Shown piece by piece: positions 20,538 to 26,636 of a DNA stretch of 64,000 nt. Source of the DNA: Eledone cirrhosa. Its lineage: Eukaryota. Where the stretch lies: NCBI GenBank assembly GCA_964016885.1, contig OZ024747.1:51026001-51090000 (forward strand), given 5' to 3'. Below the pieces are notes generated by a model. That model was not told the origin of the DNA. It saw nothing but the letters and a program-made list of their open reading frames with translations, and did no database searches. Position 1 is the first letter of the stretch. Each line of letters begins with the position of its first letter. Position numbers and translations under genes: made by a program.

Positions 20538-20591
<54 letters not shown>

Positions 20592-20851
20592 TTTCTTTAT
20601 TAACCACAAGGGTTTACATAAAGTAGACATTAAGGACAGTGCAGGACAATGCAGGACGGTACAAATGGGCATTTCTGCGTGTAAAAAAACAAAAACAGAG
20701 GATGTAACAAAAATAACAATGAAAATAACAATGAAAAATTCCCCAATAGGGGGGAGACTTCGGAGGGACATTTGTGGAGAAAGCCCAGTAAAAAGCCACA
20801 ATGACCCTGACCACCAAGGCAAGTGCCCTCTCCCAGTTTTCCACCTTTAGT

Positions 20852-24306: not shown

Positions 24307-26403
24307 TTACCGTACTTTTGGTAGAGGAGGGATGGTTTTTACATCCCTTTTCACTTGATCGTCTGGTGAAGGGACCGTTGAATCGTCCCTTCGGCTGGTC
24401 GTCGGCTCTTCTAAGAGAATGTCTGAATATACTCTTCGATTAATGGTTCCTCCTAGGTCCCTGAAATCACCAACTGCGTTGGGGAATTTCGTTTTAATGT
24501 TTGTGTATTGTTTCTGTGCTATTTTTAGCAGTCTTATGTTAGTTGGCGTTTTGATTGGTGCTGGTATTATGTAGTCCTGTTGTGAAATGTCTGTGTGTTC
24601 AATTATGTAAGTCATTAATTTCTTGTTGTGTGTGTTTATTGCCGTGCATTTGTTTTTCTGGGGGTGGGGTGGGGTTCTGCTATTTTCTTGTCGTTGTTGC
24701 TGGGTGTGTGTGTTTTGTTGTTGTGTTTGCGATGTTGGTGCTTGTGGTGGTGGTGTTGAAGGTGTTGTTGGCGGTGGGGTTGTCGCCGGTGGTGATGGTG
24801 GTGCTGGTGTGGGTGGTGATGGTGTTGGTGGTGTTGCTGCTGTGGGTCTCTTTGCAGTAGACTTTACCCTTTTCTCATTTCTTTCCTCCCTTTTCAAAGG
24901 CGACGATGCGCTGCTTCTGCGTTTGTGCCTTCTTGAGACCTTTTGCCATCCCTCTCCCACCTCACACTCCATGTCTGATTCTGTAAGGTCGGTGAGGGGT
25001 ACCAGCTCCACTCTTTCACTTGTTGTTGTTGGTGATGTTTGCACTGGAGTCTCTGTTGCAGCTGCATTTGGTATTGCTGTTGTTGTTGTTAATATTTCCA
25101 CTGCTGCTGCTGTCTTTGATTTCCGTGGAGTGGGTATGGGTGCCACGGACCTATCGTTCCTGGTTGCCGCTTGTCCTGTTGCTGGTAGCCGTGGAACCGG
25201 ATTCGGAAGGAGGGGGGTTTTCTCCTTTCTCAGGGTCTTCTCGTTGCAGAAGGCCCTGAGGTGAGTCTTCGATCCACAGCGAAAGCATTTCGGGCGTTTG
25301 CCCTCAACACTTATGGGCAGTTGAGTGCCGTTATCGAAGTCTATCACATCCGGGATAGCTTCGATGCACTCCTGGTTGGTTTGGATTAGCATCTCAATGG
25401 AGGAGCCGACCCAATCTTCTCTTACTTTTTTCTGTACTTGCAGTACAGTTGTTTTGTCCTCGATTCCGACGAGGACAGACGCGGCCAGCCAAGAAGGGGT
25501 CATTCCGGGGGGGACGTGGGTCAGTTTGACCCTCACAATTTTTTGCCCGCAGTAGGAGGGCACCAACACCATTTCCTCGCTCCTTAGGGTCACTACTGAT
25601 TGGGCCTTTGCCTCCTGGGGTGTGGCAAAATGTCCGTCTACGGTGGCATATTTTTTTCCTCGGGTGATGTGCGTTTTCCGCTGCCACACAGACCCCAAGG
25701 CTTTTTGTATTTGGGCCTCTGTAGCTCTTTCCACCCTACGGGATTTTGTACTTACTGTACGGTACGTGACCGTACAGTGCTCTTGGGTTTCGAAAAATTT
25801 TTCCGCTGCCTTGCAGATTGCTCGGTGTCCGTTCTTTGTCGCCATCTTCTTCGCTTCCTCTAATTCCTCATTTGTTATGAGGATTGTTTCCAAGTTTTTC
25901 GCAATACCTGCAAATGAGATTGGTTTTTCTCTGCTGTTGTTGTTGTCGTCAGAGCTGCTGGTACTTTTGTTGTTGCTGCAGGTACTACGACTACTGCCTC
26001 CGCCGCTGTTGCTGTGGTTGTTGTTGGTGTTGCTGCTGCTAATGCTGTTGTTGTTTATGCTGCTGGTGCTGCTGTTGCGGCTGCTACTGTTGTTTTCATT
26101 GTCACTGTTGCTGTTGTTATTACGGCTGCTACTGCTATTATTCCTGACGTCAGACGAATGAACTGGGTTTTCGTATTTCCCGCACACCTGTTTCGTGGCT
26201 GTCGTCGTCGTCGTGGAGAAACCTTGCACGCTTTGCACGAGACTTTTCTTTTCTTTCGTCACTTGCGAAAGAGAAGGGAGGGAGAGAGACACATTTAAAG
26301 AAGGGAGGGAGAGAGACAATCTTCTCTCTGCTGTAGTGATGATTGAGAAAGAAGAAGACGGAATGAGTGGGAGTGACGTATGAAATTTCTTTTTCGTAGC
26401 CAT
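24307..26403 (-). CDS. Tx1 ORF1, gag-like nucleic-acid-binding protein (698 aa)
   Basis: Open 698 codons upstream of ORF2; zinc knuckle CFRCGSKTHLRAFC (CX2CX4HX4C); S/N-rich and P/T-rich low-complexity tracts. Confidence 0.9.
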   Translation of the reverse strand: MATKKKFHTSLPLIPSSSFSIITTAERRLSLSLPSLNVSLSLPSLSQVTKEKKSLVQSVQGFSTTTTTATKQVCGKYENPVHSSDVRNNSSSSRNNNSNSDNENNSSSRNSSTSSINNNSISSSNTNNNHSNSGGGSSRSTCSNNKSTSSSDDNNNSREKPISFAGIAKNLETILITNEELEEAKKMATKNGHRAICKAAEKFFETQEHCTVTYRTVSTKSRRVERATEAQIQKALGSVWQRKTHITRGKKYATVDGHFATPQEAKAQSVVTLRSEEMVLVPSYCGQKIVRVKLTHVPPGMTPSWLAASVLVGIEDKTTVLQVQKKVREDWVGSSIEMLIQTNQECIEAIPDVIDFDNGTQLPISVEGKRPKCFRCGSKTHLRAFCNEKTLRKEKTPLLPNPVPRLPATGQAATRNDRSVAPIPTPRKSKTAAAVEILTTTTAIPNAAATETPVQTSPTTTSERVELVPLTDLTESDMECEVGEGWQKVSRRHKRRSSASSPLKREERNEKRVKSTAKRPTAATPPTPSPPTPAPPSPPATTPPPTTPSTPPPQAPTSQTQQQNTHTQQQRQENSRTPPHPQKNKCTAINTHNKKLMTYIIEHTDISQQDYIIPAPIKTPTNIRLLKIAQKQYTNIKTKFPNAVGDFRDLGGTINRRVYSDILLEEPTTSRRDDSTVPSPDDQVKRDVKTIPPLPKVR

Positions 26404-26636
26404 GTTGTTTTTTGTTTAAAATGAATATTGGGTACAAAACCCCAATAACTGGTTATTTAACCCCGAAGGGCCAAATAACGGACAGAAAGACCCCTCTCAC
26501 GAGGAGGAGGGTGTCTTTATCAACAATTTGGTTCAAGTTTTAAACAATTTACAATTGTTTTAACGGTTAAAAATTACTATACCTTACAGAGCCGAGCCTC
26601 CGTCAACCATGGCATTCAATAATAATAATAATAATA

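What the first reader, a model, noticed from the sequence alone, without database searches (positions are those of the whole stretch)
20590..26617. Intact, potentially active Tx1 retrotransposon apparently targeting (TTA)n microsatellites
Seen: both ORFs are open with all catalytic motifs, and both ends abut (AAT)n; other Tx1 ends at 17910, 19081, 19097, 20537, 30412 and 47051 also abut (TTA)n in the same relative orientation. Established: several Tx1 families are sequence-specific (Kibi (TC)n, Koshi (TTC)n, Keno U2 snRNA, Mutsu 5S). Inference: an APE endonuclease specific for (TTA)n/(TAA)n; I cannot tell whether this family is already catalogued.
Basis: partly seen in the sequence, partly recalled or inferred. 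Interest (0 to 1): 0.7.

Follow-up and report, generated by a model that had tools for sequence, protein, structure and literature searches.

The report
Young LINE family homing to ATT repeats
This is an intact copy of a young, very abundant jumping gene (a LINE retrotransposon) whose full-length copies almost all start right after an ATT repeat, likely because its own cutting enzyme picks that repeat; repeat-seeking is a known habit of such elements, but I found no report of this target for this group.

Summary
Confirmed. Window 20590-26617 (minus) is a complete 6,028-bp L1/Tx1-type LINE. ORF1 (698 aa) has two predicted RRM-like domains and a CCHC knuckle; ORF2 (1,139 aa) has APE, RT and zf-RVT with the catalytic motifs present. 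Genome-wide, 2,352 of 2,459 matches to this 5' end (95.6%) and 1,574 of 1,735 to a second 5' end on the same ORF2 (90.7%) follow (ATT)4 in exact phase; the window background is 0.05%. 12 of 25 5'-truncated copies also abut (ATT)3 or more (null 0.7%). Some 3' ends carry only one ATT, and imperfect target duplications of 7-42 bp occur, so the repeat is a target, not a self-made tail. The family is young: 11 of 40 sampled sister copies keep both ORFs. Expression and the activity of this copy are untested. In 2 of 9 tandem pairs the upstream copy carries its neighbour's private 5' alleles, which points to 5' completion by homology. Endonuclease specificity is inferred, not shown. Microsatellite-targeting Tx1 families are known; I found no (ATT)n one in print, and Repbase/Dfam could not be searched. 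This scan had already reported the family, its target and the neighbour copying at other loci of this genome.

The parts
20590..26617 (-). Full-length L1/Tx1-type LINE, 6,028 bp, 5' end type A
26404..26617 (-). 5' UTR (214 nt); starts with G directly after ATT; 2,459 genomic matches to its first 22 nt
24307..26403 (-). ORF1, 698 aa: low-complexity N-terminus, two predicted RRM-like domains, CCHC knuckle, Thr/Pro-rich C-terminus
25246..25287 (-). ORF1 CX2CX4HX4C zinc knuckle (residues 373-386)
   Evidence: the four ligands are invariant in 17 aligned ORF1 cores
20852..24271 (-). ORF2, 1,139 aa
23555..24271 (-). APE endonuclease domain (residues 1-239)
   Evidence: Pfam PF03372 E 3e-14; matches L1-EN structures
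22010..22741 (-). Reverse transcriptase core (residues 511-754, YADD)
   Evidence: Pfam PF00078 E 1e-28
21194..21352 (-). zf-RVT zinc-binding region (residues 974-1026)
   Evidence: Pfam PF13966 E 6.5e-8
20590..20851 (-). 3' UTR; AATAAA at 20601-20596, six bases before the end; no poly(A) follows
   Evidence: no A6 within 40 nt in any of 92 copies
26618..26638 (.). (ATT)7 target repeat at the 5' junction, shared head-to-head with a Dong/R4-like fragment
20537..20589 (.). (ATT)17 target repeat at the 3' junction
19097..20536 (-). Older 5'-truncated copy of the same family (85% identical), head-to-tail downstream
19082..19096 (.). (ATT)5 spacer
17910..19081 (-). Third tandem relative with another 5' end and a large internal deletion (ORF1 start, ORF2 C-terminus about 61-67% identical)
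26639..28347 (+). 5'-truncated, broken Dong/R4-like LINE (YMDD RT remnant, CCHC, PD-(D/E)xK-like endonuclease motif read by eye), facing the opposite way, followed by (TAA)19 at 28348-28404
   Evidence: the family label is from recalled motifs plus PMC3812793

Best explanation
This is an intact copy of a young, two-ORF L1/Tx1-type LINE family whose full-length copies sit in phase after (ATT)n repeats, likely because its APE endonuclease nicks (AAT)n/(ATT)n DNA and reverse transcription is primed there. Inferred steps: (1) The transcript likely runs a few bases past AATAAA into the flanking ATT run. The nicked (AAT)n strand would pair with those 1-3 AUU units and prime cDNA without poly(A), which explains why 89 of 92 3' ends begin with ATT and none has poly(A). 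(2) A second cut in the ATT strand, typically 12 or more bases downstream, would give target duplications and leave repeat on both sides, so each insertion renews the target and copies stack head-to-tail. Both junction phases fit cuts at TpA steps, but the repeat hides the exact bond. (3) Truncated cDNAs join by microhomology, often with target loss, hence their weaker ATT association. (4) When a copy already lies just downstream, the new cDNA can likely finish by annealing to that neighbour and copying its 5' part plus the spacer, making a full-length chimera.
For: Shown: 2,352 of 2,459 type-A and 1,574 of 1,735 type-B 5' ends follow (ATT)4, against 0.053% background. The two 5' modules differ (ORF1 cores about 53% identical) but share ORF2, so the target follows ORF2/3' end. 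12 of 25 truncated 5' junctions have (ATT)3 nearby against 0.68% (p 4e-20). Imperfect target duplications: 17, 11, 7, 7 bp in truncated copies (L059, L042, L054, L041) and 34, 42, 42 bp in tandem full-length copies (L100, L164, L165). In 62 full-length copies the 5' run is >=4 units in 60 and the 3' run in 50; discordant 12 vs 2 (p 0.013), so the long run lies on the side a primer cannot pair with. L165 is identical to neighbour L164 for 577 bp and L164 to L163 for 1,290 bp, with private alleles. Their remainders are 0.34% and 0.13% from unlinked young copies and about 3% from L163. Established: target choice is mainly set by the endonuclease, and Tx1 families target microsatellites (PMC4494074, passages); Tx1L-EN nicks almost only its target (PMC1950540, passages).
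Against: No biochemical or expression data. 13 of 25 truncated junctions lack (ATT)3: 2 abut (TTC)n, 4 have short or degenerate ATT, and 7 have none, including two young copies (L132 99.8%, L141 98.4%). Only 6,455 of 9,045 3' ends (71.4%) are followed by (ATT)4. Insertions at degenerate sites (L054, L042) show that the core motif is short. Neighbour copying is clear in only 2 of 9 same-head tandem pairs (one more, L100/L099 at 357 bp, is borderline: 3 of 810 unrelated pairs reach 350 bp), and both clear cases are in one array. No empty pre-insertion allele was seen.
Confidence: 0.75

Rival explanations
1. Specificity comes mainly from base pairing. A generic AT/TpA-nicking endonuclease cuts widely; only primers ending in AAT pair with the RNA tail, and full-length RNAs carry upstream (AUU)n whose cDNA anneals to the target, as in R2 elements whose RNA keeps upstream 28S sequence.
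For: Full-length 5' junctions are far more uniform (95.6%) than truncated ones (12 of 25), the pattern described for R2 (PMC3774820, abstract). Degenerate targets are used by truncated copies. Homology-based 5' completion is visible in tandem copies.
Against: Truncated copies cannot carry a 5' AUU leader, yet are about 70-fold enriched for upstream ATT. 3' pairing can be as short as 3 nt (L093, L116, L146), too little to give this selectivity alone. No Rfam family reached its gathering score in 17000-31000, so no ribozyme was found.
Confidence: 0.17
2. The ATT run is a self-made tail; 5' association only reflects copies stacked behind other copies' tails, with arrays expanded by unequal crossover.
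For: 22 of 92 sampled 3' ends run straight into another full-length 5' end. An array with a repeated [Dong fragment + element] unit (L154-L156) looks like unequal crossover.
Against: Many full-length 5' runs are preceded by unrelated DNA, Dong-like fragments, a SINE or (CTT)n. Some 3' ends have one ATT and then non-repeat. Imperfect repeats are duplicated on both sides. The 3' parts of L164 and L165 match different unlinked copies, not each other.
Confidence: 0.04
3. Insertion is broad, and copies persist only in ATT repeats through selection or passive accumulation.
For: PMC3812793 (passage) cites passive accumulation for Drosophila Waldo-A/B near CA repeats.
Against: Exact triplet phase and fixed strand in thousands of copies, including copies under 1% divergent.
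Confidence: 0.02

Closest known systems
Kibi (TC)n, Koshi (TTC)n and crocodilian Tx1 families in (TTCC)n/(TTTC)n (PMC4494074, passages and section 15; PMC3812793, passages)
   Same: APE-type Tx1-clade LINEs inserting into microsatellites
   Different: Their targets are pyrimidine-rich repeats in vertebrates; here the target is (ATT)n, with over 4,000 full-length 5' ends. Relationship not tested by a tree (no named sequences available).
Dong, DongAg, DongBg (TAA-targeted; PMC3812793, passage; R4 clade with restriction-like endonuclease per PMC4640811, passages, and recall)
   Same: Same trinucleotide repeat; a Dong-like fragment shares the 5' run at 26618-26638
   Different: Unrelated endonuclease class, single ORF, opposite strand: convergence on one target, not kinship.
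Xenopus Tx1L and human L1 endonucleases (PMC1950540, passages; PDB 1vyb, 2v0r)
   Same: Same APE scaffold and catalytic residues; the hairpin-loop anchors align
   Different: Different loop sequence and target; no poly(A) tail; type I ORF1 rather than the mammalian type.
R2 uniform 5' junctions by cDNA-target annealing (PMC3774820, abstract) and L1 templated insertions by strand annealing (bioRxiv 10.1101/2024.08.27.596794, passage)
   Same: Homology-driven completion of the 5' junction
   Different: Here the template is the adjacent copy of the same family (577-1,290 bp plus spacer), which yields full-length chimeras.

Membership tests
L1 group (L1/Tx1) non-LTR retrotransposons | ORF2 with N-terminal APE endonuclease, RT and C-terminal zinc-binding region | tested here: met
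   Pfam; best PDB match human L1 ORF2p E 2.6e-52 against R2 1e-21
L1 group (L1/Tx1) non-LTR retrotransposons | Two ORFs, no terminal repeats, 5' truncations, target-site duplications | tested here: met
L1 group (L1/Tx1) non-LTR retrotransposons | 3' poly(A) tail | tested here: not met
   0 of 92 copies have A6 within 40 nt of the end; typical of mammalian L1, and I did not find it stated as required for Tx1
Tx1 clade | Type I ORF1: RRM(s) plus CCHC knuckle (PMC5203782, passages) | tested here: met
   CCHC motif; model mean pLDDT 75 whose top Foldseek hits are tandem RRM proteins, E 2e-4 to 1e-3; VIA Z at most 7.6, a common fold; no significant Pfam hit
Tx1 clade | RT phylogeny groups with Tx1L, Keno, Kibi, Koshi | not testable with these tools
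   34 homologues found had no source names; no Repbase/Dfam
Target-specific element (Kojima's criterion: over 20% of flanks share the target, PMC4494074) | Flank enrichment | tested here: met
   95.6%, 90.7% and 48%
Target-specific element | Endonuclease nicks the target in vitro | not testable with these tools
   needs a bench assay
Kibi/Koshi families | (TC)n or (TTC)n target | tested here: not met
   Target is (ATT)n; only 2 of 25 truncated junctions abut (TTC)n
Dong/R4 | Restriction-like endonuclease, single ORF | tested here: not met
   APE at the N-terminus, two ORFs

The most novel reading that the evidence does not exclude
An APE-type LINE has converged on Dong's (TAA)n target from the opposite strand, and it routinely rescues unfinished cDNAs by copying the 5' end of the copy next door. 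That would explain both its unusually high full-length share (63 or more of 92 sampled) and its swapping of 5' UTR/ORF1 modules on one ORF2. Thousands of near-identical copies would make second-strand and 5' joining of L1-type elements readable from one genome.
Probability: 0.3. Interest if true: 0.7.

Novelty: new variant of a known kind. Interest (0 to 1): 0.45.

Why it matters
It adds a target, (ATT)n, to the L1/Tx1 repertoire and gives an endonuclease whose specificity can be tested directly. How LINEs finish their 5' junction is poorly understood, and this family offers thousands of young insertions, with chimeric neighbours, as natural experiments. It also explains stacked retrotransposon trains in this genome. 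It extends a known habit rather than revealing a new kind of system.

Tried and rejected
The 3' UTR DNA search returned nothing, a filter effect, since exact patterns found thousands. Rfam over 17000-31000 gave six weak hits below gathering score and no ribozyme. No RNA holder was listed among 24 runs, which is no evidence on expression. Contigs of seven runs and one raw-read run gave no empty allele or usable junction: repeats were skipped, and the raw-read run X22 laid 0 reads. The ORF1 core found no homologue among longer proteins and no significant Pfam family. The ESM Atlas could not be used. Supplements of PMC4494074 were unavailable, and its Fig. 3, which lists more Tx1 targets, cannot be seen, so an (ATT)n/(TAA)n Tx1 family could be listed there or in Repbase/Dfam. 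Literature searches with Tx1, target and microsatellite terms showed none; Kojima and Fujiwara 2004 itself was not read. A self-made tail and passive accumulation were rejected (see rivals). Neighbour copying as the general rule was rejected: 6 of 9 same-head tandem pairs differ within the first 200 bp. The host looks like an octopod by my recall of its repeats and by earlier scan notes; this was not tested.

Full report
Observation. Window 20590-26617, minus strand, is a 6,028-bp element with a 214-nt 5' UTR, ORF1 (698 aa), a 35-nt gap, ORF2 (1,139 aa) and a 262-nt 3' UTR. Pfam finds Exo_endo_phos, RVT_1 and zf-RVT in ORF2. The best solved relative is human L1 ORF2p (E 2.6e-52), with the APE catalytic positions and YADD aligned. 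ORF1 has no significant Pfam hit but has a CCHC knuckle. A model of its core from 13 copies (mean pLDDT 75) is closest to tandem-RRM proteins by Foldseek (E 2e-4); VIA-align gave only middling Z scores. This is the type I ORF1 that PMC5203782 (passages) links to the Tx1 clade.

Family size and age. The genome has 3.0 Gb. An exact 40-mer of the 3' end occurs 5,808 times and a 23-mer 9,045 times. I took the first 94 listed places on contig C1 as 92 loci (12 short loci, 80 regions). They hold 40 full-length copies with this 5' end (type A), 22 with a second 5' end and ORF1 on the same ORF2 (type B), one with a third, and 25 counted 5'-truncated events. Four were dropped: L055 as a duplicate of L054, L096 and L128 with unresolved 5' ends, and L121 as internally rearranged. 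11 of the 40 type-A copies keep both ORFs and 19 keep a 1,139-aa ORF2; intact copies differ by 0.25-1.2%. All 150 scored matches to the APE domain were listed at 100% identity without stops. The window copy's nearest sampled relative differs at 30 of 6,028 sites; it carries two ORF2 and seven ORF1 residues seen in no other sampled intact copy. The family is therefore recently active; the competence of this copy is untested.

Target. 2,352 of 2,459 type-A 5' ends (95.6%) and 1,574 of 1,735 type-B 5' ends (90.7%) follow (ATT)4 in exact phase. The window background is 68 of 127,976 positions, itself inflated by these elements. Because full-length heads might carry the repeat themselves, truncated copies are the harder test: 12 of 25 have (ATT)3 at the junction against a null of 0.68% (p 4e-20). 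Of the other 13, two abut (TTC)n, four have short or degenerate ATT, and seven have none; three or four of those abut Dong-like sequence and two are young. At the 3' end, 89 of 92 copies continue with ATT, 70 with four or more units, 71.4% genome-wide, and none with poly(A). Copies such as L093, L116 and L146 have one ATT and then other sequence. Imperfect repeats are duplicated across copies: 17, 11, 7 and 7 bp in truncated ones, and 34, 42 and 42 bp in tandem ones. So the repeat is pre-existing target, not a tail made by the element. In 62 full-length copies the 5' run reaches four units in 60 and the 3' run in 50 (12 vs 2 discordant, p 0.013).

Mechanism (inferred). Target-primed reverse transcription from a nick in the (AAT)n strand, primed on a few AUU units past the AATAAA signal, with a second cut in the ATT strand downstream, accounts for the phase, the absent poly(A), the asymmetry of run lengths and the stacking (22 of 92 3' ends lead directly into another full-length head). 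The phases fit TpA cuts on both strands, like L1's TTTT/AA (PMC1950540, passages), but the repeat hides the exact bond. That the target follows ORF2 across two different 5' modules, and that truncated copies stay enriched, favours protein recognition. The rival is pairing-driven specificity, as in R2 elements that keep upstream target RNA (PMC3774820, abstract); the much greater uniformity of full-length junctions fits it, and I cannot exclude it.

Neighbour copying. In one three-copy array, L165 equals its neighbour L164 for 577 bp and L164 equals L163 for 1,290 bp. They share alleles absent from the other 38-39 aligned sequences, including a 6-bp deletion and a frameshifted ORF1 stretch, and both repeat the same imperfect 42-bp spacer. 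Their remainders are 0.34% from L148 and 0.13% from L161 but about 3% from L163 and about 1% from each other. Two independent young cDNAs completed by annealing to the downstream copy explain this most simply; strand annealing of L1 cDNA to nearby DNA is described (bioRxiv 10.1101/2024.08.27.596794, passage). It is a minority route in my sample: 2 of 9 same-head pairs, one more borderline, and six differ within 200 bp. Another array (L154-L156) repeats a Dong fragment plus element and fits unequal crossover.

Context. The 5' run is shared head-to-head with a broken, 5'-truncated plus-strand LINE with a restriction-like endonuclease motif and a (TAA)19 tail, which resembles Dong, a known TAA targeter (PMC3812793, passage). 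Two older relatives lie head-to-tail at 17910-20536. Nine or more public runs under several organism codes hold half or more of the sampled words, some with contigs about 99% identical; I cannot tell sister species from contamination.

Comparison and novelty. Known microsatellite-targeting Tx1 families use (TC)n, (TTC)n, (TTCC)n or (TTTC)n (PMC4494074, passages and section 15). Five searches showed no (ATT)n Tx1 family. PMC13282606 (passages) counts recently active L1-Tx1 and Dong-R4 families in Octopus vulgaris, and the word 'target' does not occur in its text. Repbase, Dfam, the figure and supplements of PMC4494074 and the 2004 survey could not be seen. Tx1 membership rests on architecture; no named tree was possible. 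Earlier notes of this scan report the same family, target, Dong pairing and neighbour copying at other loci; I reached these readings first (note 34), and they are not independent support. Verdict: real, a new target variant of a known kind; interest 0.45.

Noticed in passing
window 24300-24315 (minus); L096, L124: ORF1's stop codon lies inside a GGTAAGT donor-like motif followed by a pyrimidine tract before the ORF2 start, in both type A and type C copies; donor-like GTAAG/GTATAG motifs also sit about 30-50 nt into several 5' ends.
   Followed up: no
L091-L167 (type B copies): One ORF2/3' end is joined to at least three different 5' UTR/ORF1 modules (ORF1 cores 53% and 36% identical to type A), all starting with G after ATT.
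   Followed up: partly
window 26639-30376: Four consecutive 5'-truncated Dong/R4-like fragments of at least three families on the plus strand, each ending in (AAT)n.
   Followed up: partly
window 17105-17890, 28717-28836, 45661-46054 and others: An abundant SINE-like repeat of about 200 bp, bordered by AAT units, shares the ATT runs with the LINEs.
   Followed up: no
L008, L010, L014, L029, L048, L050, L116: Many insertions sit at the boundary of compound (CTT)n(ATT)n repeats.
   Followed up: partly
L109; C1:62859826-62859990: Rare inverted neighbours of the same family: head-to-head across SINE pieces in L109, and tail-to-tail judged from positions only.
   Followed up: no
L159: 13-nt inverted piece at a truncated 5' junction, like twin priming.
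   Followed up: no
window 31500-41000: Long G-rich, strongly skewed minisatellite region (GC skew 0.5-0.9).
   Followed up: no
runs X5, X6: Runs filed under other organism codes hold contigs about 99% identical to the element and the Dong-like neighbour, X5 at low depth.
   Followed up: no
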